Source: an uncultured Candidatus Saccharibacteria bacterium
GTDB taxonomy: Bacteria > Patescibacteriota > Minisyncoccia > UBA6257 > UBA9933
Reading direction: 5' to 3'
Length of the DNA stretch: 36,905 bases
Assembly (NCBI GenBank): GCA_964651905.1
Contig: CAZYZO010000001.1
Coordinates: forward strand, 1 to 36,905
Part shown: piece by piece, positions 1 through 14,421 of the stretch
How positions within the stretch are numbered: position 1 is the first letter of the stretch
Layout of the letters: each line of letters opens with the position of its first letter
Notes under the pieces: generated by a model
What the model was told of the DNA's origin: nothing
Database searches by the model: none
What the model saw: only the letters and a program-made list of their open reading frames with translations
Translations under genes and position numbers: made by a program

Positions 1-85
1 CATCTACTTTTTTAAGCTTCTTTTCTATTCCAGAGAGAATCCATCCAATAATTAAAACAATAATTAATATTTTCCACCATTCCAT
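1..85 (-). CDS. partial small membrane protein (N-terminus only, runs off the left edge)
   Basis: ATG at 85..83 reads MEWWKILIIVLIIGWILSGIEKKLKKVD... on the minus strand. Contains a hydrophobic TM-like stretch. No family recognised. Confidence 0.3.
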   Translation of the reverse strand, partial: MEWWKILIIVLIIGWILSGIEKKLKKVD

Positions 86-110
86 AGATTTTATTTCTTA
101 ATTTTTTCTT

Positions 111-590
111 TCATAGATTTATTTTTTTGATAACTTTGTTATTTATTTTCTGCACTAATCTGGCAGACCTTTCTTTAACAATTGCTTTTGTCCCATCTTC
201 ATTATCTATTTCATATTGACCACCGGCTTTTTGAATTTGACTTATAGCTTCCTTAAAATATTCTTTATGCCTATTTTTAGCCATCATAAAACTTAGGAAA
301 GGCATTTCATTTATCACTTCCTGCTCTTTTATTGCCATATCGAGAATGTGTTTGGAAAAATGGTCTTTATGAAAACAAATCTTACAAATTTTACATCTCA
401 ATAAATCTTCGGGATGTTCATATTCTTTCGGGTTTTTAATCCCTCCAATCATAAAAATATCAACCCTTGAACCAAACCAATAATAAAAGACGAAACCAAT
501 AATTATTAGAAAAAATAATGGTTTCCAAATAATCCAAGCTATTCCTAAAAGGATAAGAAAAAGCAGAATATTTGTTGTATTATTTTTCAT
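111..590 (-). CDS. hypothetical membrane protein
   Basis: 159-aa ORF with two N-terminal hydrophobic segments (ILLFLILLGIAWIIW, LFFLIIIGFVFYYWF) and a soluble tail carrying CKICKICFH. No recognisable family. Confidence 0.55.
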   Translation of the reverse strand: MKNNTTNILLFLILLGIAWIIWKPLFFLIIIGFVFYYWFGSRVDIFMIGGIKNPKEYEHPEDLLRCKICKICFHKDHFSKHILDMAIKEQEVINEMPFLSFMMAKNRHKEYFKEAISQIQKAGGQYEIDNEDGTKAIVKERSARLVQKINNKVIKKINL

Positions 591-600
591 AGATTATTTT

Positions 601-810
601 GTCAAGCTTCGGTGGTAGAACTCGAACCTTTTCGGTCTCTCGATAAAAAATGTTGACTGCGGTGTGTCTCGGTCCAGAACTTTGCTTGTGCAATCAGTAT
701 AAAGCTTTTTTGAAGGTCATTCCAGAAGCTCAACCGAGGTGTCTCGGTCAGGGTCAAAACGAGACAAATGAGACACGGAAAACACATATTCAATAGTGTC
801 TCATTTATCC
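601..810. repeat. noncoding repeat element copy L1 (tRNA T-arm-like fragment plus GTGTCTCGGTC motifs)
   Basis: GGTGGTAGAACTCGAACC at 611-628. GCGGTGTGTCTCGGTCCAGAAC at 659-680 matches 4546-4567 at 21/22 positions. GGTGTCTCGGTC recurs at 738-749. GAGACA/GAGACAC lie at about 761-776 and GTGTCTC at about 797-803, allowing alternative pairings. The 63-aa ORF 602..793 here looks spurious. Confidence 0.45.
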
Positions 811-908
811 ATGGCTTTGAGTAAGTTAGGTTTTAAATTTATCTAACCGTCCAAAATCCGAATTTTTGAAGATACACCGCTAGATTAAAATTTGGTAAAA
901 TAAAAACT

Positions 909-1616: not shown

Positions 1617-1701
1617 AGCTTTTACTCGGCAGCAAAAATATATTATTTTGTAAATTTCAATTAAGACAGCTAAAATAAAGAAGATTTAATAGGACAAAGA
1701 T

Positions 1702-2724: not shown

Positions 2725-2757
2725 ATAACCCGTCAGTTAGAATGGCGGGTTATTTTT
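2724..2757. terminator. hairpin between convergent genes (possible bidirectional terminator)
   Basis: ATAACCCG-13 nt-CGGGTTAT followed by TTTTTG. The right arm overlaps the radical SAM stop codon at 2750-2752. Confidence 0.45.
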
Positions 2758-4018
2758 GATAATTTTGATTTATGGGAAAAGATTCCCTATCCAATATATA
2801 CCTTAAGACGTCTTTAATAAATTGCCGAATCTCTTCACAACGATAACTTTTCGCGGTCAAGAAATTCTTCGACTCCATCACAGCTTTATTTGCGATACAG
2901 TCGCTGCAACAACTTACTGCTGCAAAACAATCAGAACATTCAGGAATATTCCGCACGCCGATTTTTTTAAGTTGCTGATAAACGTTGTTATCGAAAACAA
3001 AGGCGTTACGATTCGCATCGAATCTTCCATATATAAAATGCGAAGCGATTATATCTCGATTGTCTGTCATTCGATTACAACTTGTGCACCGTCCATCAGG
3101 CGTAATCATAAAATTTCGCCCCGCTACTCCGCAAAATTCAAAGCTTTTCTTTCCTAAATTAAGAACTGATGTCTTAAGTTTACAACCGAATTTTTCAGCA
3201 ATAGGCAATGCCTCTAAGAATTTCGTAAAAAATACCTTAGAGGACGGCATCGCGTATTTATTATTTCTCCCCCTTCCCATTGCAAAAAGCGGCTCATGTA
3301 ATTGTTTACAGTTAGGAAAGTTTTTGCCAAAAAAGTAAACTATATCTGGCAAATATTCAACACTATAGCTTGATATCGTCGAACGAAAAGCTACTTTTGT
3401 TGGTATCTGATTATAAAGCATTTTTGCAATCTCGAAAACCTGATCAAAACTATTGCTTCTATGAATGTCTTGAATCTCTTTAGGACCGTCAAACGAAATG
3501 CTGATGCCATCCATATTTCTCGCCAACCATTCGGCTTGTTTTAAACTCATACAACCATTAGTATTGATAGTTGCACGACTGCGACAACCAATTATCTCTG
3601 CTTTTTGACGTAGGTATCGCACCGCAGAAATTAGTATATCCCATGCTTGTGTTGGTTCTCCGCCAAACATATTGGCATAAATCAATCTCTTGCCAAATTT
3701 TTGAGCACAATCTGCAATATAATCAATAGTGGCAAAAATGACCTGTTCAGACATAAAAGTTTTCTTTTTCGGGCTTGCATTTTCGTAGCAATAAACACAA
3801 GCTAAATTACAATGATCGGTTAAAATTAAATTTGTCCCAAAGAATGTATAATCTGGAAGATTATCTTTTTGAAAAGCAAAATAAGGTTTATCACTCTCAA
3901 TAAAGTCAGTAATTTTCTCTGCTACTGTCGGGCTGACGCGATAAACCCTAGAAAGCGAAGGGACGAATACAATAACATTATCGCCATCTAATATCTTAAA
4001 AACCCTGTGCTGATACAT
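2750..4018 (-). CDS. radical SAM / SPASM-domain peptide maturase
   Basis: CNLACVYC (CX3CX2C) near residue 70. C-terminal SPASM-type cysteines: CGVAGRNFMITPDGRC, CSDCFAAVSCCSDC and a later RC. SD AAGGAGGG lies upstream of the ATG. Sits directly downstream of a Cys-rich small ORF. Confidence 0.9.
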   Translation of the reverse strand: MYQHRVFKILDGDNVIVFVPSLSRVYRVSPTVAEKITDFIESDKPYFAFQKDNLPDYTFFGTNLILTDHCNLACVYCYENASPKKKTFMSEQVIFATIDYIADCAQKFGKRLIYANMFGGEPTQAWDILISAVRYLRQKAEIIGCRSRATINTNGCMSLKQAEWLARNMDGISISFDGPKEIQDIHRSNSFDQVFEIAKMLYNQIPTKVAFRSTISSYSVEYLPDIVYFFGKNFPNCKQLHEPLFAMGRGRNNKYAMPSSKVFFTKFLEALPIAEKFGCKLKTSVLNLGKKSFEFCGVAGRNFMITPDGRCTSCNRMTDNRDIIASHFIYGRFDANRNAFVFDNNVYQQLKKIGVRNIPECSDCFAAVSCCSDCIANKAVMESKNFLTAKSYRCEEIRQFIKDVLRYILDRESFPINQNYQK

Positions 4019-4051
4019 GTTTTTACCCTCCTTTCAAGTTTTAAGGTTTGA

Positions 4052-4085
4052 TTCCGAAGGGACAACTAAAGTTGCCCCTTCGGAA
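4052..4085 (-). promoter_or_regulatory. intercistronic stem-loop between the precursor peptide and maturase genes
   Basis: TTCCGAAGGGACAAC-TAAA-GTTGCCCCTTCGGAA forms a 15-bp stem with one mismatch and a 4-nt loop. No strong U-tract follows on the minus strand. Confidence 0.6.
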
Positions 4086-4095
4086 ATATTTGATT

Positions 4096-4278
4096 TCATG
4101 CGCCGCTTGGACAAGTAACATCTGCGCAATCACCGCCGCAATCTCCATCACAGCCGTCAGTATCGCCACAGTCATCACTTCCACAGCCACCGATTGAATT
4201 AAAAACCGCGGCCTGATTAAAGCGACTATTTAGCTTGACGCTAGAAATCGCTATCTTCTCAAGTTCATTACTATCCAT
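4096..4278 (-). CDS. RiPP precursor peptide candidate (Cys/Asp/Gly-rich core, SCIFF/ranthipeptide-like)
   Basis: MDSNELEKIAISSVKLNSRFNQAAVFNSIGG|CGSDDCGDTDGCDGDCGGDCADVTCPSGA. AAGGAGGTGAAT precedes the ATG at 4278; the track's GTG start at 4284 overlaps the SD. The last 29 residues hold six Cys. Immediately 5' of the radical SAM/SPASM gene. Confidence 0.75.
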   Translation of the reverse strand: MDSNELEKIAISSVKLNSRFNQAAVFNSIGGCGSDDCGDTDGCDGDCGGDCADVTCPSGA

Positions 4279-4315
4279 ATTCACCTCCTTTTTTTCGGTT
4301 TTTTGTTAAAACTAC

Positions 4316-4344
4316 AATTTCTGTCTTCTACATTCACAGAAATT
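4316..4344 (-). promoter_or_regulatory. 5'-UTR hairpin of the precursor transcript
   Basis: AATTTCTGT-11 nt-ACAGAAATT (9-bp stem), between the predicted promoter and the SD. Confidence 0.35.
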
Positions 4345-4387
4345 TCTCTCTAATTGTTTTTTCAAGGTGCTATTTTATCTTAATTTT

Positions 4388-4416
4388 ACAATAGCAAGTC
4401 AATTAAAATTTGTCAA
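4388..4416 (-). promoter_or_regulatory. sigma70-like promoter for the precursor/maturase operon
   Basis: On the minus strand: TTGACA (4416-4411), 17-nt spacer, TATTGT (4393-4388), about 110 nt upstream of the precursor ATG. Confidence 0.5.
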
Positions 4417-4488
4417 ATTTCTAATATAGTTAATATAACCACACCTTATTCTAAATTTTAGAGGCGGAAAACCCGTCGTGTATAAACT

Positions 4489-4633
4489 GGCGGAGGGTGA
4501 AAGATTTTCAGGCGGGGCCCGCTATCGCACCCGCTTTTCATCTTGGCGGTGTGTCTCGGTCTAGAACCAAATTCTAGTAAGTTGTTGCAACATTCTTGAA
4601 AAGGGGCCATTTGAGATACTTCGGTCGCATTAT
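4489..4633. repeat. noncoding repeat element copy L2
   Basis: GGCGGAGGGTGAAAGATTTTC at 4489-4509 is a degenerate relative of 5298-5321. GCGGTGTGTCTCGGTCTAGAAC at 4546-4567 matches 659-680 at 21/22. Patchy similarity to L1 continues downstream (TTGTTGCAA vs TTGTGCAA; TTGAAAAGGGGCCATTT vs TTGAAGGTCATT). Confidence 0.45.
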
Positions 4634-5290
4634 CTAAAACGACTTAGCAATTCTTACAAATTCTTTTACTTTCTCAATGTCTTTTCCGTTTCCATCGGGA
4701 AGATCTGTTTTAGTTTTAGAATCAACTCCTGCGGGCATAACTTCCTTAATGGCCGCCTCCACATTTTCCGGGCCAAGGCCACCGGCCAAGATCACCGGCA
4801 TACTAACAGAATTAACGATTTTTTTACTTATCGTCCAATTATGCGTTTCGCCAGTCGCTCCGATTTGAAAATCTCCTTTTTTGCGGCTATCTAAAATAAG
4901 AAAATCTGCAATTCCTTCATATTTTTTAGCTAACCCCACGCTTTTCTCGTCTATGACCGGAATAGTTCTCATAATTTTAATCTGAGGATATTTTTCTTTT
5001 ATTTTTTTAACTGAATCAGGTAATAAAGATTCCGTAGATATGCCAAGTTGTAAAATATCGGGGTTAACCTTTTCTACTAATTCCGAGATTCTCCTTAGAT
5101 CAGAAGAAAGCGTGAGAGCAACCTTAGTGGTTTCACTAGGAAGAGAGTTAAAAATCTCTTTTACTCTATCATCGTCTAAACCTCTAGGGTCAACTTCTTT
5201 TCCTACTAGCACGCCAATAAAATCTACTCCTACTTCTATGAGTTTTTTAGCTTCTTCCGGATTTTGAACTTCGTAAATTTGAACAATCAT
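4634..5290 (-). CDS. trpF: phosphoribosylanthranilate isomerase-like protein
   Basis: From MIVQIYEV...: GATGETHNW, PVILAGGLGPENV and PAGVDSKTKTD...GKDIEKVKEF match the TrpF (beta/alpha)8 C-terminal signatures. I trimmed the 38 N-terminal codons of the track ORF because they read through a tRNA-like noncoding fragment. Confidence 0.75.
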   Translation of the reverse strand: MIVQIYEVQNPEEAKKLIEVGVDFIGVLVGKEVDPRGLDDDRVKEIFNSLPSETTKVALTLSSDLRRISELVEKVNPDILQLGISTESLLPDSVKKIKEKYPQIKIMRTIPVIDEKSVGLAKKYEGIADFLILDSRKKGDFQIGATGETHNWTISKKIVNSVSMPVILAGGLGPENVEAAIKEVMPAGVDSKTKTDLPDGNGKDIEKVKEFVRIAKSF

Positions 5291-5297
5291 GGTTTTT

Positions 5298-5365
5298 TGC
5301 GGAGAGGGAGGGATTCGAACCACGTGGGTCGCCCTGTTGTCTCGGTAATATGGGTTGTCTCCGAT
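5298..5365 (-). repeat. repeat element copy L3: tRNA 3'-end-like fragment plus GTTGTCTCGGT motifs
   Basis: TGCGGAGAGGGAGGGATTCGAACC (5298-5321) matches the 3' end of tRNA-Ser (14257-14280) at 20/24 positions in the same orientation. GTTGTCTCGGT at 5335-5345 and GTTGTCTCCGAT at 5354-5365. No complete cloverleaf can be drawn. Confidence 0.45.
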
Positions 5366-5554
5366 AATAAATTGTCTTGACGGTGGCTGAACCGGTATTC
5401 GCATTAAAGGCCTTATCTTGTGGCCGTATTGATAAAATTATACGCCGTTTGAGGTTATTTTACAGGAAAATCTAGCCTCTTTTGAGATTCTGGTGTTTGC
5501 CCAAAAGGTCTACTAATCTTAAATTGTTTAATTTAGCTAAAAGCGTCATTCTTC

Positions 5555-5800
5555 GTGGCGGATTCCTCTACCAGCTTGCTTTCCTTGAGGTATGCAAACG
5601 ATGCAGTACTTGTTTTGAATTTTAAAAAGAATGGGCAACCAAATTATATTGGTGGTGCAACTTTCATAGAAATATTTAGGGCATCTGATTCAGACAAGAA
5701 AGTCTTTTTATATAATCCAATTTCAGAATCTAATTTTAAAGACGAATTGATTGGAATGAGTGTTGAAGTCATCAATGGTGATTTGACCAAAATTAAATAG
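5555..5800 (+). CDS. hypothetical protein, possibly a C-terminal gene fragment (N-deoxyribosyltransferase-like fold guessed)
   Basis: 81-aa ORF with a GTG start and no SD. ANDAVLVLN...NYIGGATFIEIFRA...KKVFLYNP loosely resembles the C-terminal half of nucleoside 2-deoxyribosyltransferase-like proteins. This is a weak call. Confidence 0.3.
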   Translation: MADSSTSLLSLRYANDAVLVLNFKKNGQPNYIGGATFIEIFRASDSDKKVFLYNPISESNFKDELIGMSVEVINGDLTKIK

Positions 5801-5840
5801 CTGATTGACAAAAAGTATCATTTTTATCAAAATTAATTTA

Positions 5841-6782
5841 ATGTTATTAGACACTTATAAAAAAATGTTCCTTATTCGGACAACTGAAGAACAAATAGCC
5901 GCTTATTACCTTAAGAATAAGATAATGAGCCTCGTTCATTTCTATATTGGTCAGGAAGCGATAGCTGTGGGTGTCTGCGATGCATTACATAAAGATGATC
6001 GTGTGATAGGCAATCATCGATCACACGGACACTATCTGGCCAAAGGAGGAGATCTTAAGAAGATGATCTGTGAATTGTTTGGAAAGGAATATGGTTCGTC
6101 GCATGGCAAGGGTGGATCAATGCACATGATCGATACATCGGTTAATTTCATTGGGTCGACCCCAATCCTCTCAAGTGCTGTACCACTTTCCTGTGGTAGC
6201 GCATTTGAACAAAAGTACCACAAGAGTGGTACAGCAACAGTCGTGTTCTTAGGTGATGGTGCGTTTGAGGAAGGAGGTGTCTACGAATCTATGAATCTAG
6301 CGGCCCTTTTTAAGCTGCCGTTACTCGTCGTTCTTGAAAATAATTTCCGGTCCATTAACACGCGCCTTTGGGAACGGCGATCTGCAGCCCATAATACTAA
6401 AAAGATAGTTACTGGATTTGGAGTACGATATATAAGAGCCGATGGGAATGATTATTTAGACGTGGCAGTAAAGGTTAGAGAGCTTATCACCGAAGTACGC
6501 GCAGGTAAACCTGCTCTCATTGAGTGTATGACCTACCGTCACATGGCACACAGTGGGCCAACCTTTGAGGAAGAAACTCGTGAAGAGGATACAGCGGAAC
6601 AGCGAAAGGAGAAAGATTCAGTAGTAAAGATGAGACGAGAAACTCTCGCTTCAGGAGTCTCCGAAGAGGAAATTACTGCTACGGAAAATGATATTAAGAA
6701 AACCGTTACCAATGCTATCGTGTTTGCTGAGAAGGCACCTTTTCCAAAGAAAGAAAGTTTATACACCAACCTCTATGTCTAA
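5841..6782 (+). CDS. TPP-dependent 2-oxoacid dehydrogenase/decarboxylase E1 component, alpha subunit
   Basis: Typical E1-alpha layout: FYIGQEAIAVGV, GNHRSHGHYLAKG, GKGGSMH, VVFLGDGAFEEGGVYESMNLAALFKLPLLVVLENN (TPP-binding GDG...N), YRHMAHSGP. I prefer the ATG at 5841 over the TTG at 5805. Confidence 0.85.
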   Translation: MLLDTYKKMFLIRTTEEQIAAYYLKNKIMSLVHFYIGQEAIAVGVCDALHKDDRVIGNHRSHGHYLAKGGDLKKMICELFGKEYGSSHGKGGSMHMIDTSVNFIGSTPILSSAVPLSCGSAFEQKYHKSGTATVVFLGDGAFEEGGVYESMNLAALFKLPLLVVLENNFRSINTRLWERRSAAHNTKKIVTGFGVRYIRADGNDYLDVAVKVRELITEVRAGKPALIECMTYRHMAHSGPTFEEETREEDTAEQRKEKDSVVKMRRETLASGVSEEEITATENDIKKTVTNAIVFAEKAPFPKKESLYTNLYV

Positions 6783-7815
6783 TAGGATTATCACATACAC
6801 TGAAGCAATTAAAGAAGCCACGGACCAAATAATGGAGGTGGATCAGGACGTTGTTGTTATGGGTCTAGAAGTCTCATATAAAAACGGTGCAGACGGAACA
6901 ACAGCCGGACTTAAGGAAAAATATCCCTGCCGGATAATTGAAACGCCACAATCAGAAAATGCTGTAACAGGAATGGCAGTCGGCGCAGCTATAACAGGCC
7001 TTCATCCTATTGTGCACCACGGTAGGGTTGAGTTCGCAATCTTTGCGGCTGACCAGATATTTACACAGGCGGCGAAGTGGAATTATATGTTCGGCGGTGG
7101 ACATTCGGTTCCTGTTGTATTCAGGATCAATATTGGTCGACAATGGGGCCAGGGCCCGCAGCACACACAAGCGTTCTATTCGCTCTTTGGCAACACGCTT
7201 GGTCTTAAAGTTGTGATTCCCTCTACTCCGCGTATGGCGAAGGGTTTACTTATCTCTGCAATCCGTGACAAAAATCCCGTAGTTATCTTGGAACCACGCT
7301 GGCTTTTCTCTCTAAGACAGGATGTGCCAACCGAACTTTATGATAAACCACTCAATAAAGCTGTTATAATGAAAAAGGGCGCGGATCTTACAATTGTTTC
7401 TTATGGGGACGGTTTGATTGCGGCATATGAAGCTTTAGAGTTGATCAGTGGTCATGTTAATGCAGAACTTATAGATCTTGTTTCCATAAATCCAATAGAT
7501 TACGGAACTGTTTTAAAATCAGTAAAAAAAACTGGCCGACTTATCACAATTGATACCACCAATCACGCCTTTAGTATTGGCTCGGATGTTATCGCGAATA
7601 TTGCGGAACAGCAGTTGCTACACTTGAAGAATGCTCCAGTCTCACTTTCCTGTCCAGACGTTCCAGTCCCCACCTCAACCATACTCACTGAATCTTACTA
7701 TCCAACAAAAGTGGATATCGCAAACGTTGCGTTATGTCTGATGGGTAAGCCAACTATCAAGCGTGACTTAACTTTTGAAGAATTACACCTTGCCCCGAAT
7801 TTAGTTATAAAATAG
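6775..7815 (+). CDS. TPP-dependent 2-oxoacid dehydrogenase/decarboxylase E1 component, beta subunit
   Basis: MSNRIITYTEAIKEATDQIM..., ETPQSENAVTGMAVGAAITGLHP, VVILEPRWLF and a transketolase C-terminal-like end. The ATG at 6775 overlaps the alpha stop by 8 nt (ATGTCTAA). The track's upstream extension lies inside the alpha gene. Confidence 0.85.
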   Translation: MSNRIITYTEAIKEATDQIMEVDQDVVVMGLEVSYKNGADGTTAGLKEKYPCRIIETPQSENAVTGMAVGAAITGLHPIVHHGRVEFAIFAADQIFTQAAKWNYMFGGGHSVPVVFRINIGRQWGQGPQHTQAFYSLFGNTLGLKVVIPSTPRMAKGLLISAIRDKNPVVILEPRWLFSLRQDVPTELYDKPLNKAVIMKKGADLTIVSYGDGLIAAYEALELISGHVNAELIDLVSINPIDYGTVLKSVKKTGRLITIDTTNHAFSIGSDVIANIAEQQLLHLKNAPVSLSCPDVPVPTSTILTESYYPTKVDIANVALCLMGKPTIKRDLTFEELHLAPNLVIK

Positions 7816-7826
7816 CGGTGCTATAA

Positions 7827-8029
7827 ATAAAGGTACTTGTTACTAGCGGGACAGAATTTATTTGTTTCTACATCTGCGAGATTTCCCCGAAAAATACTTC
7901 AGTTGGAAAACTTCCAAGGAAGTATCGGATTCTAATGGTGAATATTGGAATGATACTATATCAGGAGCCATTCTGTTTACGAATACACTTGGTGCTCAAG
8001 ATATTGCCAGATTATTTGCCGAAGAATAA
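7827..8029 (+). pseudogene. decayed remnant of an NAD-dependent epimerase/dehydratase (SDR) gene
   Basis: ATA-AAG-GTA... reads (I)KVLVTSGTEFICFYICE, which resembles the canonical MKVLVTGGTGFIGSHLCE with the start and all Gly-motif positions mutated. A different frame ends ...EKYFSWKTSKEVSDSNGEYW...AQDIARLFAEE*, resembling an SDR C-terminus. About 200 nt remain of roughly 950 nt expected. Confidence 0.45.
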
Positions 8030-8131
8030 ATGAACCTTGTAGAAAACTATCCAATAAAGAATATTTTACAAAAATAATTGTGGTAATGGACTGTAGACCA
8101 AATTAAAGGCTTATAGTATGTTGATGTATAT

Positions 8132-9700
8132 ATGGTTTATAATAATAAACAAAAAATTATAAGAAATAAAAATCTTCCCAAATCCATACGATCTGTAGTA
8201 CGTATGTATCCATCTAATCAGGTCAATAGATTATTTTATGGTGGACTACCCCACCTAGGTAACACACTTTTGAACTCTTGGAAATCTACTGAGATACAAG
8301 AAGCGGCTAAGACGTATGATGATTACAGTCTTTCCTCGAATCTTCTTATAAAAGGCTTTAAGGATCCTGTAGTGGATAAAGTAAGATTAGGAATTGGAAG
8401 CCCTGCACGTTTTAAGCCTTTTGGTAGGTGTATTAAGAGTATAAAATATGCCTTGCAAAATAGAATACTTTCTGACTATCAATTAGCCGCGGGATATAGT
8501 GAGGACAAGGTACCCATCATAAAATACTTTAAAATTTCTCATGATTTAGAAATTACTGAAAATAATATTATTTTTACCCACTCAGGTACACAGGCGTTTA
8601 CCTTTGTTATGGAAGCAATACTGGATTATGGGGATGTGGTCATTATGACAGCCCCAAATTATGGACTTTTCGCCTTTATTCCAGAGAGGATCGGGGGTGA
8701 AGTTAGACTTTTACCGCTTACAAGTCTTAATGATTGGAAAATTAACCCGAAAGAACTTAAGCAACTTATTTTTAATACAAATAATGAACTTAAGCGAGAT
8801 TATGATATAAATCGTGGGAAATATGTTTTTAGACGCTCTGATGTGCCACCAAGAGTTTCTGCTTTTCTTAATTTAAATCCGCACAACCCAACGGGTGTTG
8901 TGTACAGTAAAAAGGACATATCGTTGTTGGTAGAAATTTCTAATATTTGCAATGAGGCTGGTGTATTTATTGTCGATGATTTGGCTTATTTTGGTCTAGA
9001 ATTTGATAGAAATTCTACCGCACTACCCATTTGTAGCTTAAAGGGGTATTTTAATAATACGATAACACTATATTCTCTTTCTAAATCTTACGGGTTGGCT
9101 GGCTTAAGGTCAGGTATGATTATTGCTAATGAGGTGATTATTTCTCTGATAAGAGATAAAATATTTCAGAGTTTGGATTCATTGTCTTTATTACAGTCGG
9201 CCGCTATGAGTGCGGTTTTCTTAATTGAGGATAATGCTCTTATAGAAAGAGAGAGGTACTTTACCGATATCACCAGGAAATATTATGAAAGGTATGTCTT
9301 TGTGAAAGCTATTATTATAGGGATTGATAAAATTAACAAAGAAGAAAGAATACTGCTCAACAAGATTATTCAAAACAACAAACTTATTTTTAATATTAAA
9401 AAATCTATGAGCGGTATCAGAGATGTTAGCATAGCACTTGAGCCAGAGTCGGGATTTTTTATACTCTTAGATCTAAGTAAATTACTTGGAAAATCTTATA
9501 AAGAATTTAAAATAATTGATGATATAACTTTGTTAAAATTTTTGTATACATCAGGTAATATTAAATTATTGACTGGCAGAGCATTTTGTTGGCCTAATCA
9601 GAGCCAGCTTACCGCAAGGGTAACTATCGCATTTGACAAATATGAAGATTTATTGAAATCTTTTTTACGCCTCAAATTATCCATAGAATCATTAGTATGA
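8132..9700 (+). CDS. PLP-dependent aminotransferase, class I/II
   Basis: 522 aa. NLNPHNPTG and the Schiff-base lysine motif YSLSKSYGLAGLRSG. Unusually long N-terminal extension and C-terminal inserts. Confidence 0.85.
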   Translation: MVYNNKQKIIRNKNLPKSIRSVVRMYPSNQVNRLFYGGLPHLGNTLLNSWKSTEIQEAAKTYDDYSLSSNLLIKGFKDPVVDKVRLGIGSPARFKPFGRCIKSIKYALQNRILSDYQLAAGYSEDKVPIIKYFKISHDLEITENNIIFTHSGTQAFTFVMEAILDYGDVVIMTAPNYGLFAFIPERIGGEVRLLPLTSLNDWKINPKELKQLIFNTNNELKRDYDINRGKYVFRRSDVPPRVSAFLNLNPHNPTGVVYSKKDISLLVEISNICNEAGVFIVDDLAYFGLEFDRNSTALPICSLKGYFNNTITLYSLSKSYGLAGLRSGMIIANEVIISLIRDKIFQSLDSLSLLQSAAMSAVFLIEDNALIERERYFTDITRKYYERYVFVKAIIIGIDKINKEERILLNKIIQNNKLIFNIKKSMSGIRDVSIALEPESGFFILLDLSKLLGKSYKEFKIIDDITLLKFLYTSGNIKLLTGRAFCWPNQSQLTARVTIAFDKYEDLLKSFLRLKLSIESLV

Positions 9701-10581
9701 AAATATATATTGCCTCATCAGAAAAGTATGTAGGAAAAATCCAAGAAGATGTTTATATACGCGACACCTATAGAAATAAAGGATTTTTTTGTGAAATCGT
9801 TACTCTGAAAAATATCGTAAAGATCTCAAAACCCTTTGATGGGGTAATTTTAAAAAGCGTCTGGGGGTATTATTTACACTATCAAGAATTTCTAAGGCAA
9901 TTATCAATACTCAGAAAAAAGAATATTAAACTAATAAACGACTATAATTTTATTTTTTGGAATATTGATAAGTATAAATACTTGTACGAATTAAAGCATA
10001 TGAATACAATTCCCACGACACTTCTTAGTTTTAAAAGTATTAAGAAGGTATTTGAGATTAGAAATATAATATTACAAATAAATAAAACATTAAACACGGA
10101 TACGTTGGTTATTAAACCCTGTATTTCAGAAAGCGGTTACTTAACCTTTAAATACGATAAAACAAAAAATAATAAGGCTATTATTGCTTTACTGCAACAA
10201 AATAAACAACTTAATTTTATTGCACAGCCCTACCGACCGGATATCTTGTCTGGAGAGTTATCTGTGGTCATAATTAATGGCATCTCCTTGTATGGCATTA
10301 AGAGATTTCCTGGAATTTTTAGTGAAAAATTAGATCCGATGTATATAAGGTTTATTAGCTTGCCGGGTGTAATAAAAAAAGAAGTAGACATATTAAAAAT
10401 ATTTTTCTTAAAGAAGTTTGGCGTTTTCCCTAATATATGCAGGGTTGACTTCTTAAAGATTGATACTGGTTATGAAATTTTAGAGGTAGAGTTAATAGAT
10501 CCTGATTTATTCTTTAGATACATACCTGATAGTATGAGAGAGAAAGCAACTTCCATGATTTATAAATCATTTGTTAAATAA
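9697..10581 (+). CDS. ATP-grasp-like protein (RimK/glutathione synthetase-like)
   Basis: FWNIDKYKYLYELK...IPTT followed by LVIKPCISESGY and FIAQPY...GELSVVIING, which matches the small ATP-grasp layout. ATGA overlap with the aminotransferase stop. Confidence 0.6.
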   Translation: MKIYIASSEKYVGKIQEDVYIRDTYRNKGFFCEIVTLKNIVKISKPFDGVILKSVWGYYLHYQEFLRQLSILRKKNIKLINDYNFIFWNIDKYKYLYELKHMNTIPTTLLSFKSIKKVFEIRNIILQINKTLNTDTLVIKPCISESGYLTFKYDKTKNNKAIIALLQQNKQLNFIAQPYRPDILSGELSVVIINGISLYGIKRFPGIFSEKLDPMYIRFISLPGVIKKEVDILKIFFLKKFGVFPNICRVDFLKIDTGYEILEVELIDPDLFFRYIPDSMREKATSMIYKSFVK

Positions 10582-10598
10582 TTAATTTTTATTAATCC

Positions 10599-11051
10599 AT
10601 GCTTAGAAAAGGAGTTTCAGTGCTTATCATCAACAAAAAGAACGAGTTTCTTTTAGTTAATTTAGAATCTTTTGAAAATAAGTATTTTGCAATCCCTGGC
10701 GGTGGAGTTGAACAGGAAGAAACATTAAAAGATGCGGCGTATAGAGAGTTAGATGAAGAGTTGGGAATCAAAGAAAAACATCTTCAAATCGTAGGTCAAA
10801 GTGATATACCTGTCAGATTCAAATTTAAAGTAATTAAGATGAACCGCGACGGTATTGAATATGATGGATCAGAGCGATATTTTTTTGGATTTAGATTTAT
10901 TGGCGATGAAAAAATGATAATTCCAAACCCTGGAGAGGTACGATCTTATAAGTGGGTTACATATAGCGAGTTAAAAAATTATTTACTCTTTGATAACCAG
11001 CTACAGGAAACGTTAGAAAAAATTAAAGAAATATTTTCTAACTTGTCATGA
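10599..11051 (+). CDS. Nudix hydrolase
   Basis: Complete Nudix box GGVEQEETLKDAAYRELDEELGI (GX5EX7REUXEEXGU). Confidence 0.85.
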   Translation: MLRKGVSVLIINKKNEFLLVNLESFENKYFAIPGGGVEQEETLKDAAYRELDEELGIKEKHLQIVGQSDIPVRFKFKVIKMNRDGIEYDGSERYFFGFRFIGDEKMIIPNPGEVRSYKWVTYSELKNYLLFDNQLQETLEKIKEIFSNLS

Positions 11052-12277
11052 TTAATAAACCGACACTTCTTTTTGTAGAGGAGTATGAGAATACGCTTTC
11101 AAGGAGTGTAGTGTCAAACAAAACCATTAGCTTAGTCTTAATTAGATTTAAGCAAAACATGTTCTTTAGTCAAAATCATCTCGACACAACCTCTAATATT
11201 CTTTGTTTTGTTTTTGACAAAGCGGAGTCCATAGAACATGAAGTTGATGAGTTCAAAAGATTCTGTGCCAAAAGTGGAATTGTAGTTAATTATTTCTATA
11301 ATGACTCCGAATACAACCAGGAGGTGATTCAGAAATTTGCCTCACTACTTAAACTTCCCGGCGCGTTGAATGAGTATCAAGCTCGCTGTGTAAGAGATAA
11401 AGCAGTAATGAAAGATAAACTTCATAAACTTGGATACCAAACAATGTTTTATCAAGAACTGACTTCCATTGATGATGCACTGGAATTCGCCGAAAAACAT
11501 GGAGGTTTTCCTTTTATCGTTAAGTGGCGTAGAGGGCTCTCATCGAAGGAAGTATATAGGATTGAAAGCAGGGGTCAGTTAGAGGCCCTTCAACTCGATT
11601 ATTCTACAAGGCGATTCATCGCGGAAACGTATTGTCCATACTTGATATGGAGTTTTGATTCTCTAGTGCAGGATGGCAAGGTTGTGGGAACTTTTCTAAC
11701 GTGGCTTCCATACACCAATCTAAGCTTCGCCGAGAAAAAAGAGAAGTTTGCTCAAATCACTGTTGCAGAACATCCGAAGAATATTAGATTCGATGGAGGA
11801 AAAATAACTCAGAACATAGTTAGTGAACTCGACCTGAAAAATGGATATATAGAAATAGAGTTCTTCGTTGATCTTCACGGACAACCTATTATCTGCGAAT
11901 TTGCATGGCGAACTGCCGGGGAGCACATATTGTCAAATCAAAGTCTAGCCTTTGGAGTAGATGTCTGTTCTTTATTAGTCGACATTATGGTTGGAAGAAA
12001 AATCCAACCGCTTCCACTAAATGGTCGACAATGCGTCGGCGACATGTTTCTACCATTAACCAATGGCGTCGTCACTCAAATTTCTTCCTATAAGGACCTA
12101 AGTGATCTTGATGGAGTAATCAATGGCAACATTACATGTAAAGTAGGAGATGTTATCGAGTTAAAAAGACAATACACAAGTTGTGCTGGCTGGATCCAAA
12201 TTACTGGAAAAACCGCGGACGAAGTCTTGAACAGAATGTTAAAGGTATACGAGAAGTTTGAAATTATAATAGTCTAG
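11048..12277 (+). CDS. ATP-grasp carboxylate-amine ligase (L-amino-acid-ligase-like)
   Basis: 409 aa. DKAVMKDKLHKLGY, FPFIVKWRRGLSSKEVYRIES, AETYC..., GYIEIEFFVD and EFAWRTAGE fit an ATP-grasp fold with a pre-ATP-grasp N-domain. ATGA overlap with the Nudix stop. Confidence 0.7.
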   Translation: MINKPTLLFVEEYENTLSRSVVSNKTISLVLIRFKQNMFFSQNHLDTTSNILCFVFDKAESIEHEVDEFKRFCAKSGIVVNYFYNDSEYNQEVIQKFASLLKLPGALNEYQARCVRDKAVMKDKLHKLGYQTMFYQELTSIDDALEFAEKHGGFPFIVKWRRGLSSKEVYRIESRGQLEALQLDYSTRRFIAETYCPYLIWSFDSLVQDGKVVGTFLTWLPYTNLSFAEKKEKFAQITVAEHPKNIRFDGGKITQNIVSELDLKNGYIEIEFFVDLHGQPIICEFAWRTAGEHILSNQSLAFGVDVCSLLVDIMVGRKIQPLPLNGRQCVGDMFLPLTNGVVTQISSYKDLSDLDGVINGNITCKVGDVIELKRQYTSCAGWIQITGKTADEVLNRMLKVYEKFEIIIV

Positions 12278-12322
12278 TACATTATTAATAAACTCTAGAA
12301 AAATATAATAATAAGGCCAAGT

Positions 12323-13216
12323 ATGAAAAAATTTAATAAAATAGTCATTATTGACACGGTTAAGATTACCGAGGAAGCGAAAGAAAAAATTCAACATTAT
12401 TCAAATGAGCGTGTTATTTATCCTGAATTTGACACAAAAAATGAAACGGAAATTTACCAAAGAATTAATAATGCCGACGCAGCCCTGGGTAATTGGCATT
12501 CAACAATAAATACTTCAATTTTAAAACATACCCCGAATCTTAAATATATTGGGATTTGCGGAACAAGTTTAGCGAATATTAATCTAGAAGCGGTAAGAAG
12601 GCACAATATAGTTATCAAAAACGTTACTGACTACGGCGATAATGGCGTGGCTGAATATATTTTTGCTCAACTACTTAATCTCTTTAGAGGATTCGGTAAA
12701 CACAGGTGGAGAAATGAGCCTAGTGAGCTTAATTCAAAAACAATTGGAATTATTGGTCTAGGAGCAATAGGGCAACAAGTTGCTAGAACAGCTTTAGGGT
12801 TTAAAATGAAAGTTTTATATTACAGTAAATCCAGAAAAACAGAGTGGGAGGAGAAAGGAGTTCAATATTCAACTATTGATGATTTGCTAAAAAAAAGTGA
12901 TATCATATCTATACATGTTCCTAAAAATACTAAGATCATCGGAAAAAATGAACTAGAAAAAATCGGTAATGGTAAGATTATAATCGACACCTGCTTAGGA
13001 GATATTTATAAAGATATTAATGCTGTTCGACTATGGCTTGGAAATGAAAATAATTTTTTAATAAGAGATCATCAGCCTGAAATAAAAGAAAAACTCGGTG
13101 ATTTGGAAAGATTTATATATACAGAAAATGTGATATCTGGAATAACGACAGAAGCCAGAGAAAAGCTAAGTACAAAGGTTATAGATAACATTGAAGATTA
13201 TCTAAAAAATAATTAA
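12323..13216 (+). CDS. D-isomer-specific 2-hydroxyacid dehydrogenase, NAD-binding
   Basis: KTIGIIGLGAIGQQVAR (GxGxxG), SDIISIHVP and the overall length and architecture of the family. Confidence 0.8.
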   Translation: MKKFNKIVIIDTVKITEEAKEKIQHYSNERVIYPEFDTKNETEIYQRINNADAALGNWHSTINTSILKHTPNLKYIGICGTSLANINLEAVRRHNIVIKNVTDYGDNGVAEYIFAQLLNLFRGFGKHRWRNEPSELNSKTIGIIGLGAIGQQVARTALGFKMKVLYYSKSRKTEWEEKGVQYSTIDDLLKKSDIISIHVPKNTKIIGKNELEKIGNGKIIIDTCLGDIYKDINAVRLWLGNENNFLIRDHQPEIKEKLGDLERFIYTENVISGITTEAREKLSTKVIDNIEDYLKNN

Positions 13217-13240
13217 AGGTTTGACAATTTTTCTTAAGAA

Positions 13241-13276
13241 AACGCCCAAACAATAACAGTTTATTGTTTGGGCGTT
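13241..13276. terminator. bidirectional hairpin terminator between convergent genes
   Basis: AACGCCCAAACAATAA-CAGT-TTATTGTTTGGGCGTT, a perfect 16-bp stem. The right arm overlaps the stop codon of the minus-strand gene. Confidence 0.6.
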
Positions 13277-13724
13277 ATAACATGCGGAATACTCTAACAT
13301 CTTTTTCCGCTTCCTCTTTGTTTCTGGATCGATGGATGATATTTTTGTAATATATCACGTTGTCGATCATAAGTGGCTTTCGCGCACCGAATTTAAAGCG
13401 TATGCTTTCGGGAGCGCAATCAACAGGATCAATTTCTGTGCCCGCGATTTGAAGAAGTGTATTGACAGCATCTCTCCCAACCACAAGCCCCGCTTCAACG
13501 AATGCGTTTACAAAGGGTTTAAAAACTGAGTTCCTGTATCTTTCAGGTAGGTCAGAATAAATGGCTTTTAATGCCCAATGTGGCATAACAAGCCTCTTGA
13601 CCTCTGAGATGATTAGGCCACCACCCTCGATCATTGCTCTGGCTTCTTTGAGAAATACCAAACCATGAGGTTTGATAATGTAAAAACTAGTTTCCAAGGT
13701 ACAATTCTCTCTTTCTTTGCTCAT
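13275..13724 (-). CDS. nucleoside diphosphate kinase-like domain protein (divergent)
   Basis: From MSKERENCTLETSFYIIKPHG... (GGAGGAAGTC before the ATG at 13724). FYIIKPHG resembles the NDK FxIIKPDG motif. NIIHRSRNKEEAEKDVRVF aligns with the NDK NxxHGSDSxxxAxxEIxxF, and the catalytic His is kept. Confidence 0.55.
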   Translation of the reverse strand: MSKERENCTLETSFYIIKPHGLVFLKEARAMIEGGGLIISEVKRLVMPHWALKAIYSDLPERYRNSVFKPFVNAFVEAGLVVGRDAVNTLLQIAGTEIDPVDCAPESIRFKFGARKPLMIDNVIYYKNIIHRSRNKEEAEKDVRVFRML

Positions 13725-13899
13725 GACTTCCTCCAATATTAAATTTTCAAATTTTAAAAACAATAAGCCTCATAAACGCTTACCTCTAATAAGAAGCCTA
13801 GAATATCTTGATATTTCTGTCAAGCTCAAAAAATTGGTGAATTTTACCTCTAAATGTAATAAATCTCCACAAAACCCTTGCAAACAAAGGGGGAAATTA

Positions 13900-14200
13900 T
13901 AAAGTCTAGATTCTTTTCAAGGTCTTTTAACGCGGATGGGGCGTTGGCTTCAATAGATTTTTTATCAAGAATAAAAACGGGCGCCACAAAGCATTCTGTG
14001 GGTCTTTTTTTTGCTTCTTTATTTCTAATTCAGTGTGGCTTTTTTAAAAAAAATGCGTTTAAGGCTTCTAGGATGGCGCTTTTGCCAATGCCGTTATCCC
14101 CCTAGATAGCCAACAAGTAGCCCTGATTCAAAGGAGTGGGCGGGTATGAATTTAGTATCCTGATAGCATTTAAAATTTTTAAGATATATACCGGCAAGTA
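13900..14200 (-). pseudogene. remnant of a P-loop ATPase (AAA15/OLD/RecF-like N-terminus), frameshifted and truncated
   Basis: The minus strand reads ...NFKCYQDTKFIPAHSFESGLLVGYLG, then a frameshift in a G5 run, then DNGIGKSAILEALNAFF (Walker A GxNGxGKSxxLEAL). Stops follow in all frames. Only about 0.3 kb is left. Confidence 0.5.
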
Positions 14201-14258
14201 TTTTTTATTGTGGCAGAGGACACAGCCTTCGGGTCGCTCCGATACTTAGTTGTCAATG

Positions 14259-14345
14259 CGGAGGCGGGAGGATTCGAACCTCCGATACCATTTCTGGTAT
14301 AACGGTTTTCAAGACCGTCCCATTCAGCCACTCTGGCACGCCTCC
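14259..14345 (-). tRNA. tRNA-Ser (anticodon UGA), class II with long variable arm
   Basis: GGAGGCG acceptor, anticodon loop CTTGAAA, variable arm TATACCAGAAATGGTATC, T-arm GGAGGTTCGAATCCTCC, CGCCTCC + G. CCA is not encoded. Confidence 0.9.
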
Positions 14346-14348
14346 ATG

Positions 14349-14421
14349 TGGACCGTAGCGGATTCGAACCGCTGACCTCCACATTGCAAATGTGGCGCTC
14401 TACCAACTAAGCTAACGGCCC
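14349..14421 (-). tRNA. tRNA-Ala (anticodon UGC)
   Basis: GGGCCGT/ACGGTCC acceptor with G3:U70, anticodon loop TTTGCAA, T-arm AGCGGTTCGAATCCGCT, discriminator A. Confidence 0.9.

What the first reader, a model, noticed from the sequence alone, without database searches (positions are those of the whole stretch)
5298..14345. About 9-kb island delimited by tRNA-Ser(UGA) and an imperfect direct repeat of its 3' end
tRNA-Ser lies on the minus strand with its 3' end at 14259. The 24 nt spanning its 3' end (14257-14280, TGCGGAGGCGGGAGGATTCGAACC) recur in the same orientation at 5298-5321 (TGCGGAGAGGGAGGGATTCGAACC, 20/24).

A frameshifted P-loop ATPase remnant lies directly next to the tRNA. Beyond it are an NDK-like gene, the aminotransferase/ATP-grasp/Nudix/E1 operon, an SDR pseudogene and a gene fragment. 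The E1 genes look visibly more G+C-rich than their surroundings.

This is the classical signature of an integrative island at a tRNA 3' end. No integrase remains, and the pseudogenes suggest an old, decaying insertion. Part of the match is the generic T-loop, so the repeat alone is only moderate evidence.
Basis: partly seen in the sequence, partly recalled or inferred. Interest (0 to 1): 0.6.

Follow-up and report, generated by a model that had tools for sequence, protein, structure and literature searches.

The report
Foreign gene region beside tRNA-Ser
The DNA next to this tRNA-Ser gene in a tiny-genome (candidate-phyla) bacterium really is horizontally acquired, but the short "repeat" comes from a different serine tRNA and marks an internal seam in a larger patchwork of at least 14 kb, not the edge of a single 9-kb island.

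Summary
The sequences described are real. tRNA-Ser(UGA) lies at 14258-14345 (-), and a 24-mer at 5298-5321 matches its 3' end 20/24 in the same orientation.

The 24-mer is not a copy of that tRNA's end. It is 24/24 identical (28/28 with trailer) to tRNA-Ser(GGA)/(GCU) ends in related genera. Its acceptor strand (CCTCTCC) cannot pair with the UGA tRNA's 5' strand (GGAGGCG).

Horizontal origin is well supported:
- Windows covering 4.5-13 kb lie in the top 1-5% of the genome for tetranucleotide distance.
- Block 5795-13760 is 83-92% nucleotide-identical to loci in genomes whose LeuRS and TopA are only 48-70% identical.
- Its ligase gene was found in 1 of 300 other genomes of the order and 0 of 20 in the family.
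- In relative G020, tRNA-Ser(UGA) is followed after about 850 nt by a permease. Here that permease sits at the end of another contig.

The non-syntenic DNA runs on past the 24-mer to the contig start (at least 14.2 kb). It holds more tRNA-3'-like seams, at 4546-4567 and 659-680, which frame a trpF-like gene and a radical-SAM peptide cassette. No integrase or integrase remnant was found.

Best reading: a modular, decaying variable region at a tRNA 3' end. It is an ordinary kind of feature, first documented here for this lineage.

The parts
14258..14345 (-). tRNA-Ser(UGA), intact. Its acceptor stem GGAGGCG/CGCCTCC is perfect. No CCA is encoded.
   Evidence: Relatives G020, G016, G002 and G021 encode CCA at this tRNA.
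14348..14421 (-). tRNA-Ala(UGC). The Ala-Ser pair is conserved in relatives G020 and G016.
14222..14257 (-). Trailer directly after the tRNA-Ser(UGA) 3' end. It aligns collinearly with the conserved 'T2' trailer (GACAAC ... TATCGAGAGACCGA).
   Evidence: best of about 38 tRNA trailers in the genome, shuffle p about 0.005. Suggestive only; the local alignment was not significant.
13853..14204 (-). Remnant of an AAA_15 (AriA/PtuA/GajA/OLD-like) P-loop ATPase. Only the N-terminal roughly 110 codons remain, with one frameshift and one in-frame stop.
   Evidence: AAA_15 E 5e-7; AriA 1.3e-7.
5795..13760 (.). Horizontally shared block. It holds E1 alpha (5805/5841-6782), E1 beta (6772-7815), aminotransferase (8132-9700), ATP-grasp (9697-10581), Nudix (10599-11051), L-amino-acid-ligase-type ATP-grasp (11048-12277), D-2-hydroxyacid dehydrogenase (12323-13216), and a convergent NDK-like gene (13275-13763, minus strand).
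   Evidence: 83-92% nucleotide identity to L034, L035, L038 and L055, with the same ends. Families. Gene order in 27 loci.
5322..5794 (.). Unassigned spacer between the tRNA-like fragment and the shared block. It holds an 81-aa ORF (5555-5800, +) of no known family.
   Evidence: No Pfam hit. No match in any fetched locus.
5294..5321 (-). 3' fragment of a GGA/GCU-type tRNA-Ser: GG, T-loop, T-stem 3' strand, acceptor 3' strand CCTCTCC, G, CA, plus an A-rich trailer. It ends 3 nt before the trpF-like start codon (7 nt counting from the 24-mer proper, which ends at 5298).
   Evidence: 24/24 to tRNA-Ser(GGA) of G003 and G272, and to tRNA-Ser(GCU) of G001, G060 and G143. 28/28 to G001 including the trailer. 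20/24 to own UGA and 21/24 to own GGA. Not a whole tRNA or any Rfam family.
4634..5290 (-). Solitary trpF-like (PRAI fold) gene, an accessory module.
   Evidence: Pfam PF00697. Found in 1 of 40 relatives. Nearest homologue anywhere is 65% identical.
4490..4650 (-). Junction element copy. The tRNA-3'-like 22-mer GTTCTAGACCGAGACACACCGC (4546-4567) is followed by a 62-nt trailer that is 90% identical to the trailer of tRNA-Ser(GGA) on contig C18.
909..4284 (.). Radical-SAM peptide cassette module: precursor 4096-4284 (-), maturase 2750-4018 (-), and two unknown proteins 909-2724 (+).
Evidence: Radical_SAM.
632..800 (-). Junction element copy. It has the 22-mer at 659-680 and the T2 trailer at 632-662. 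Over 632-755 it is 92% identical across 124 nt to C18:10138-10261.
606..630 (-). A further T-loop/acceptor-like fragment (GGTTCGAGTTCTACCACCGAAGC).
   Evidence: Read from sequence. Not tested further.
1..590 (-). Contig start with a 159-aa ORF of no family (111-590). The distal end of the variable region is not assembled.
   Evidence: No contig overlap was found, and the permease N-terminus is not on C1.

Best explanation
Everything from the 3' end of tRNA-Ser(UGA) leftwards to at least the contig start (14257 down to 1, at least 14.2 kb) is a mosaic variable region of acquired accessory modules.

**Position.** It sits between tRNA-Ser(UGA) and, by synteny with relative G020, a permease gene that now lies at the end of contig C8.

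**Largest module.** Block 5795-13760 is a gene cluster conserved across Patescibacteria: E1 alpha/beta, a PLP aminotransferase, two ATP-grasp ligases, Nudix, a D-2-hydroxyacid dehydrogenase and an NDK-like gene. It probably makes an amino-acid-derived small molecule. It reached this lineage by horizontal transfer.

**The 24-mer.** It is a genuine tRNA-Ser 3' fragment, but of the GGA/GCU isoacceptor type. It is one of at least three tRNA-3'-end-like seams, all in the tRNA's orientation, that separate the modules (operon, trpF-like gene, radical-SAM peptide cassette, unknown ORF).

**Shown.**
- foreign composition;
- absence from relatives;
- identity discordance with housekeeping genes;
- the exact origin-type of the fragment;
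- the extra seams and their copies downstream of tRNA-Ser(GGA) on contig C18;
- no integrase in the contig.

**Inferred.** The modules arrived by successive site-specific insertions at tRNA 3' ends, so that older junctions were pushed outwards. The recombinase acted in trans or has been lost. The region is now decaying, as the ATPase remnant suggests.
For: **Composition.** 2-kb windows from 4.5 to 13 kb rank in the 95th-99.8th percentile of tetranucleotide distance. This is the longest such run in the genome. Windows at 1-4.5 kb rank 80th-96th percentile. Beyond 13 kb the composition is normal.

**Synteny.** G020 has the order response regulator, a 696-aa gene, tRNA-Ala, tRNA-Ser(UGA), one 195-aa ORF, permease, then tRNA-Ala(GGC)/Arg/Ser(CGA). 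It is collinear with C1 on one side and with C8 on the other. C1 and C8, both reverse-complemented, reproduce that strand arrangement.

**Transfer.**
- The block is 83-92% nucleotide and 82-94% amino-acid identical to L034, L035 and L038.
- LeuRS is 44-70% and TopA 48-51% identical to those same genomes. G020 scores 75% and 80%.
- The ligase gene was found in 1 of 300 other genomes of the order and 0 of 20 in the family.
- The trpF-like gene was found in 1 of 40 relatives.

**The fragment.** It is 24/24 and 28/28 identical to GGA/GCU-type tRNA-Ser of related genera.

**Further seams.** They are shared with the tRNA-Ser(GGA) locus on C18 at 90-92% identity. They are conserved in other genomes of the order, next to variable genes and tRNAs.

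**Proximal junction.** This tRNA-Ser(UGA) lacks the encoded CCA that four relatives have. It is followed by a T2-like trailer.

**Cargo only.** No housekeeping gene was recognised in 1-14257.

**Literature.** Partial tRNAs scattered through islands are read as traces of repeated integration in Prochlorococcus (10.1101/2020.12.28.424599).
Against: - No integrase or integrase fragment is present in C1. The genome has a single Xer-like tyrosine recombinase and no serine recombinase.
- All 41 genomes of the family and order sample carry one or two tyrosine recombinases, nearly all just one. No intact integrating element of this kind was seen.
- The operon block's homologues elsewhere are never flanked by tRNA-Ser or by these seams. 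The block's own ends (5795, 13760) do not coincide with a seam.
- Relatives belong to different genera, so the 'empty site' comparison is distant. G016 has a different, also unrelated, region after its tRNA-Ser(UGA).
- The distal end is unassembled.
- The T2 similarity of the tRNA trailer is weak: p about 0.005 for the global alignment, not significant for the local one.
Confidence: 0.6

Rival explanations
1. A single integrative island of about 9 kb entered the 3' end of tRNA-Ser(UGA). The tRNA end and 5298-5321 are its attL/attR direct repeats, and the integrase was later lost.
For: The geometry fits: same orientation, on the 3' side of the tRNA, with a 20/24 match. The enclosed DNA is compositionally foreign and horizontally acquired. 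A decayed defence-type ATPase gene is present.
Against: - The fragment matches the own tRNA-Ser(GGA) better. It is identical to GGA/GCU-type tRNAs elsewhere.
- All four differences from the UGA end lie outside the T-loop: one in the T-stem 3' strand and three in the acceptor strand, where every tRNA-Ser(UGA) seen is CGCCTCC or CGCTTCC.
- Eleven of the 20 matches are the generic GGTTCGAATCC.
- Foreign, non-syntenic DNA and further seams continue to the left.
- The shared block ends at 5795, not 5322.
- No integrase remnant was found.
Confidence: 0.12
2. There was no site-specific integration. The operon and the other modules entered a recombination-prone stretch by homologous or illegitimate recombination of transformed DNA. 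The tRNA-like pieces are decayed tRNA genes, or donor flanks that came along.
For: - No integrase was found here, and nearly all of the 41 related genomes carry only one tyrosine recombinase.
- The block shows internal mosaicism. The grasp1-Nudix segment is 55-57% identical to L034, while its flanks are 86-94% identical.
- The E1 pair sits elsewhere in L055.
- A DprA gene lies in the window.
- The block's ends do not coincide with seams.
Against: - Three seams lie in one orientation. Each starts its tRNA likeness at the T-loop, and their trailers are interchangeable with those of real tRNAs.
- The same 22-mer and 30-mer are conserved across families next to different tRNAs and variable genes. 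That pattern is what recombination sites give, not random decay.
Confidence: 0.18
3. Assembly or binning artefact. Contig C1 is a chimera joined at the conserved tRNA-Ala/tRNA-Ser pair, and 1-14257 belongs to another organism in the sample.
For: - The compositional break lies close to the tRNAs.
- The genome is a 43-contig metagenome bin.
- The block is 92% identical to a contig binned elsewhere, under an implausible taxon label.
Against: - The left part carries repeats shared at 90-97% with other contigs of the same bin. C18 and C7 have flanks that are core-syntenic with family relatives.
- No housekeeping gene was recognised in the 14 kb, which is unlike a random piece of another small genome.
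- tRNA-Ser(UGA) is only 80-88% identical between genera, so a shared k-mer would need a very close co-occurring strain.
- Estimated contamination is 0.06%.
Confidence: 0.07
4. Vertical inheritance. The cluster is ancestral here and was lost from nearly all relatives.
For: In two Paceibacterota-type loci (L041, L042) the cluster lies a few kb from LeuRS, as it does here. Its identity there (61-80%) is similar to LeuRS identity (56-65%).
Against: - It was not found in 299 of 300 sampled genomes of the order.
- Identity is 82-94% to genomes whose LeuRS and TopA are 48-55% identical. That reverses the ranking expected from descent.
- Composition is atypical.
Confidence: 0.03

Closest known systems
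tRNA-linked genomic islands and integrative elements (integrase-mediated insertion into the 3' part of a tRNA gene, leaving a partial tRNA repeat). The general concept rests on my own knowledge.
   Same: It lies on the 3' side of a tRNA gene. Its composition and phylogeny are foreign. A partial tRNA copy lies in the same orientation. Its cargo is accessory and defence-type genes.
   Different: The partial copy belongs to another isoacceptor and lies inside the variable region, not at its edge. No integrase gene or fragment is present. The transferred block's ends do not coincide with the repeats.
Prochlorococcus genomic islands built by tycheposons (bioRxiv 10.1101/2020.12.28.424599)
   Same: It occurs in a streamlined genome. 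The island sits next to a tRNA, and tRNA-Ser(UGA) is among the tycheposon targets in a figure legend. Several partial tRNAs are scattered through the island, which that paper reads as older integrations pushed inwards. Cargo modules lie between them.
   Different: Tycheposons carry tyrosine recombinases and replication modules. None was found here or in 41 relatives beyond a single Xer-like gene. The seams here include a conserved, non-tRNA element of about 100 nt.
CIMEs (cis-mobilisable elements): att-flanked islands without recombination genes, accreted in tandem with ICEs in Streptococcus. From my own knowledge; not checked in a paper.
   Same: Modules are bounded by att-like repeats, carry no integrase, and lie in a tandem arrangement at one tRNA-type site.
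   Different: No cognate ICE or integrase is known for this lineage. Mobility is untested.
Integron gene cassettes with attC sites
   Same: Variable single genes or small operons are each followed on the same strand by a conserved recombination-site-like element, and they are arrayed in one orientation.
   Different: There is no IntI-type integrase and no attC-like imperfect palindrome; no consensus fold was found. The array is anchored at tRNA 3' ends rather than at an attI site.

Membership tests
Classical tRNA-targeted integrative island | Lies directly at the 3' end of a tRNA gene | tested here: met
   Novel DNA starts right after the discriminator base of tRNA-Ser(UGA). Four relatives have CCA plus unrelated trailers there.
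Classical tRNA-targeted integrative island | The distal boundary is a direct repeat that duplicates the 3' part of that same tRNA | tested here: not met
   The repeat is 20/24 to UGA. It is 21/24 to own GGA and 24/24 to the GGA/GCU types of relatives. Its acceptor strand is incompatible with the UGA 5' strand.
Classical tRNA-targeted integrative island | Integrase (tyrosine or serine recombinase) gene or remnant inside the island | tested here: not met
   Six-frame PF00589 and PF00239 searches of the whole assembly found only one Xer-like gene, on C7, and none on C1. The assembly is 84.6% complete.
Classical tRNA-targeted integrative island | Atypical composition relative to the genome | tested here: met
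   Tetranucleotide distance is in the top 1-5% across 4.5-13 kb.
Classical tRNA-targeted integrative island | Absent from the same site in relatives (empty site) | tested here: met
   G020 has the permease about 850 nt after tRNA-Ser(UGA). Caveat: it is a different genus, and G016 has other unrelated DNA there.
Classical tRNA-targeted integrative island | Foreign DNA is confined between the two repeats | tested here: not met
   The non-syntenic accessory DNA continues from 5297 to the contig start. The shared block ends at 5795 and 13760.
Tandem-accretion island (tycheposon or CIME type) | Several partial tRNA or att repeats in one orientation, with cargo modules between them | tested here: met
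   The seams at 5298-5321, 4546-4567 and 659-680 (plus 606-630) are all on the minus strand, as is the tRNA.
Tandem-accretion island (tycheposon or CIME type) | Intact integrase-bearing elements of the same kind in related genomes | tested here: not met
   41 of 41 genomes have one (rarely two) Xer-like recombinases. None is clearly island-borne. Serine recombinases were tested in the own genome only.
Tandem-accretion island (tycheposon or CIME type) | Evidence of excision or mobility (circular junctions, empty sites within a population) | not testable with these tools
   No reads or population data are available.

The most novel reading that the evidence does not exclude
The seams belong to an undescribed family of small recombination-site elements in this order of ultra-small bacteria.

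- **Left arm.** Each unit has a conserved left arm (GTCAACATTTTTTATCGAGAGACCGAGACACC...).
- **Right arm.** The right arm ends in a mimic of a tRNA 3' end (GTTCTAGACCGAGACA-CACCGCA).
- **Insertion.** Units insert exactly at tRNA 3' ends (Ser, Trp, Gln). This regenerates a tRNA-like end for the next insertion.
- **Cargo.** Units occur empty, at about 95 nt, or carrying cargo genes. Cargo seen includes homing endonucleases, a lysozyme-like GH19, a trpF-like gene and a peptide cassette, and perhaps the 8-kb operon.

This would be a cassette-capture system that works without a dedicated integrase. It might use the single Xer-type recombinase or an enzyme supplied in trans.
Probability: 0.25. Interest if true: 0.7.

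Novelty: new member of a known kind. Interest (0 to 1): 0.42.

Why it matters
Candidate-phyla (Patescibacteria) genomes are tiny. In my two literature searches I found no description of tRNA-anchored islands in them.

This case shows an 8-kb biosynthetic operon moving between lineages whose housekeeping proteins are only about 50% identical. It also shows that accessory genes pile up at the 3' ends of tRNA-Ser genes in a modular way.

For the scan itself there is a caution. A short tRNA-like repeat near a tRNA should be compared with all isoacceptors, and with relatives, before it is called an att duplicate.

If the conserved junction element is a real recombination site, it would open a way to study how these organisms acquire genes without resident integrases.

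Tried and rejected
- **tmRNA or another RNA at 5298-5550.** ARAGORN finds no tmRNA, Rfam gives nothing at E up to 10, and the acceptor sequence is wrong for tmRNA.
- **A whole decayed tRNA at 5298.** Only a variable-arm-like hairpin lies upstream. There is no 5' half.
- **Consensus RNA fold of the junction element.** None was predicted on the strand tested (the sense strand, as aligned). Rfam gave no hit on either strand.
- **Donor context for the trpF-like gene.** The closest homologue among 5.8 billion proteins is only 65% identical, so no donor locus could be examined. In G031 the gene sits in an ordinary operon without tRNA fragments.
- **Junction elements or tRNA fragments flanking the operon in other hosts.** None was found in 30 loci.
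- **Joining C1's start to C8's end.** No overlap was found, and the permease N-terminus is not on C1.
- **'SDR pseudogene'.** No Pfam support in the open stretches tested.
- **First chance test of the 24-mer.** It used a 24-mer shifted by one base, so its count of genome hits is not usable. Only the zero hits in simulated genomes are cited.
- **Local alignment of the tRNA-Ser(UGA) trailer to T2.** Not significant, p about 0.2. Only the collinear global alignment stands out.

Full report
**Setting.** The window is the first 36.9 kb of contig C1 (54.4 kb). The assembly is 487 kb in 43 contigs, with 36% G+C and 84.6% estimated completeness. Relatives have 0.5-0.9 Mb genomes. The public loci that share genes with the window are labelled Patescibacteria, Paceibacterota or Saccharibacteria.

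- tRNA-Ser(UGA) is at 14258-14345 (-), with tRNA-Ala(UGC) next to it.
- The 24-mer at 5298-5321 matches 14257-14280 at 20/24 in the same orientation.
- Twenty simulated genomes gave no such match, scanned with a 24-mer shifted by one base. The similarity is therefore real and tRNA-derived.
- The P-loop remnant beside the tRNA is the N-terminal roughly 110 codons of an AAA_15 / AriA-PtuA-GajA-type ATPase. It has one frameshift and one in-frame stop.
- The other genes are intact: an NDK-like gene, a D-2-hydroxyacid dehydrogenase, an L-amino-acid-ligase-type ATP-grasp, Nudix, a second ATP-grasp, a 522-aa aminotransferase, and E1 beta and alpha.
- I could not confirm an SDR pseudogene.

**What the 24-mer is.**
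- Against all 40 tRNAs of the genome it is closest to tRNA-Ser(GGA) on contig C18 (21/24). Next come Ser(UGA) at 20/24 and Ser(CGA) at 18/24. All other tRNAs score 17/24 or less.
- A pattern search of 300 other genomes of the order found the sequence with 2 or fewer mismatches in 110. Exact copies occur in three genera of the same family.
- In every case I fetched, it is the 3' end of tRNA-Ser(GGA) or tRNA-Ser(GCU), with acceptor stem GGAGAGG/CCTCTCC.
- tRNA-Ser(UGA) in the window and in relatives always has GGAGGCG or GGAAGCG.
- With the trailer included, the match to tRNA-Ser(GCU) of G001 is 28/28. A GGGCGACCC hairpin upstream resembles that tRNA's variable arm.
- tRNA likeness stops at the T-loop, and no RNA family matches.
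- So the fragment is the 3' part of another serine tRNA type. It is identical to the version carried by neighbouring genera and differs from all four serine tRNAs of this genome.
- Its 20/24 match to the UGA tRNA reflects the generic T-loop (11 nt) plus shared serine-tRNA features.

**Is the enclosed DNA foreign? Yes.**
- *Composition.* 2-kb windows between 4.5 and 13 kb rank in the 95th-99.8th percentile for tetranucleotide distance. This is the longest such run in the genome. Composition returns to normal beyond 13 kb.
- *E1 G+C.* The higher G+C of the E1 genes is seen in every host of the cluster, so it is not separate evidence.
- *Shared block.* Window 5795-13760 aligns at 83-92% nucleotide identity to four public loci (L034, L035, L038, L055), with the same ends. 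In the two loci with long flanks (L035, L038) the neighbours are rearranged.
- *Discordance.* Block proteins are 82-94% identical to the copies in L034, L035 and L038. LeuRS is 44-70% and TopA 48-51% identical to those same genomes (G312-G314). The family member G020 scores 75% and 80%.
- *Distribution.* The ligase gene was found in 1 of 300 other genomes of the order, at 65% identity, and in 0 of 20 in the family.
- *Wider spread.* The core cluster (aminotransferase, ATP-grasp, Nudix, ligase, with the NDK-like gene in most) is widespread in Patescibacteria at G+C from 0.22 to 0.51. It is never beside tRNA-Ser in 27 loci.

**Where the region ends.**
- In G020 the order is response regulator, a 696-aa gene, tRNA-Ala, tRNA-Ser(UGA), one 195-aa ORF, a permease, then tRNA-Ala(GGC)/Arg/Ser(CGA).
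- In this genome the permease and everything after it lie at the end of contig C8, and the permease runs off the contig.
- C1 and C8, both reverse-complemented, reproduce the G020 arrangement. All of C1:1-14257 plus an unassembled gap therefore lies between the tRNA and the permease.
- The genes left of the 24-mer are accessory too. The trpF-like gene was found in 1 of 40 relatives. Windows 1-4.5 kb are in the 80th-96th percentile.

**More seams.**
- The 22-mer GTTCTAGACCGAGACACACCGC has the layout of a tRNA 3' end. It occurs at 4546-4567 and 659-680, both on the minus strand, and on C18 at 10213-10234.
- At 4490-4551 it is followed by 62 nt that are 90% identical to the trailer of tRNA-Ser(GGA) on C18.
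- Window 632-755 is 92% identical over 124 nt to C18:10138-10261.
- The 22-mer and about 100 nt upstream of it are conserved in 12 of 300 other genomes. They lie 3' of variable genes, including HNH and LAGLIDADG endonucleases, a GH19 protein and unknowns. Several are near a tRNA-Ser.
- The 30-mer CCGCAGTCAACATTTTTTATCGAGAGACCG follows either this pseudo-end or real tRNAs. These are Trp, Ser(UGA) and Ser(CGA) closely, and Ser(GCU) about 200 nt away. A variant follows Gln and Ser(GGA) in other families.
- In G082 one cargo-less unit of about 95 nt sits directly after tRNA-Ser(CGA), bracketed by CACCGCA on both sides.
- No RNA fold or Rfam family fits.
- The trailer of the window's own tRNA-Ser(UGA) aligns collinearly with this 30-mer. 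It is the best of about 38 tRNA trailers, with p about 0.005. This tRNA also lacks the encoded CCA that four relatives have. This last point is suggestive only.

**Mechanism.**
- The pattern fits repeated insertion at tRNA 3' ends: a tRNA, then modules separated by same-orientation tRNA-end-like seams whose right-hand arms are interchangeable with real tRNA trailers. Older junctions are displaced outwards. Partial tRNAs inside Prochlorococcus islands are read the same way (10.1101/2020.12.28.424599).
- The enzyme is missing. C1 has no integrase trace. The genome has one Xer-like recombinase and no resolvase. All 41 related genomes have one or two tyrosine recombinases, nearly all just one.
- The operon block's own ends do not touch a seam, and its copies elsewhere lack seams.
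- Insertion by site-specific recombination is therefore an inference. Uptake by general recombination into a plastic region remains a serious rival. An assembly chimera at the tRNA pair is unlikely, for two reasons. The left part shares genome-specific repeats with contigs C18 and C7. No housekeeping gene was recognised in it.

**Verdict.** The proposed att repeat is a fragment of a different serine tRNA, and the island is larger and modular. This is a known kind of feature, newly documented in this lineage. The conserved junction element is the part most worth further work.

Noticed in passing
window 632-800 and 4490-4650; G000 contig C18:10100-10261; loci L064-L076, L079-L103: A conserved noncoding junction element. 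Its right end is the tRNA-3'-like 22-mer GTTCTAGACCGAGACACACCGC. Its associated trailer is the 30-mer CCGCAGTCAACATTTTTTATCGAGAGACCG. It was found in several families of the order, directly after different tRNAs (Ser, Trp, Gln) and 3' of variable genes. No RNA fold or Rfam match was found.
   Followed up: partly
G000 contig C18:9165-11145 (locus L078): Downstream of tRNA-Ser(GGA) lie an HNH homing-endonuclease gene with homing-endonuclease repeats, a junction element and a secreted-protein gene. The contig then ends. The stretch is compositionally atypical, in the top 5%.
   Followed up: partly
G000 C18:9253-9285; C7:16565-16597 and 5661-5686; C9:15121-15145; window 4510-4545: A G+C-rich hairpin (AAAGCGGGTGCGGAGCGGGCCCCGC) recurs right after tRNA-Ser(GGA), tRNA-Leu(UAG) and tRNA-Ile(UAU). 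It is a genome-specific tRNA trailer or terminator repeat.
   Followed up: no
locus L034 3925-5961 compared with window 9697-11051: Mosaicism inside the shared operon. The first ATP-grasp and the Nudix gene are only 55-57% identical to L034, while the flanking genes are 86-94% identical. In L055 the E1 pair lies after the dehydrogenase instead of before the aminotransferase.
   Followed up: no
loci L041 and L042: In two Paceibacterota/Zambryskibacteria loci the same cluster, without E1 and the dehydrogenase, lies 2-5 kb from LeuRS, as in the window but with LeuRS on the other strand. This could be old synteny or coincidence.
   Followed up: no
G000 contigs C34:850-859 and C37:1557-1566: Perfect T-arm plus acceptor-like sequences (GTAGGTTCGAATCCTAC...ACCGGA) that ARAGORN does not call as tRNAs. 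ARAGORN also finds no tmRNA anywhere in the 487-kb assembly.
   Followed up: no
window 14258-14262 compared with L013, L014, L006, L009: tRNA-Ser(UGA) here ends ...CCGCA-TTG, without an encoded CCA. The same tRNA in four related genera encodes CCA.
   Followed up: partly
window 7816-8131: The spacer between E1 beta and the aminotransferase is 316 nt here, about 190 nt in L034 and about 57 nt in L035. The window has roughly 120 nt that are absent from L034. No coding signal was found.
   Followed up: partly
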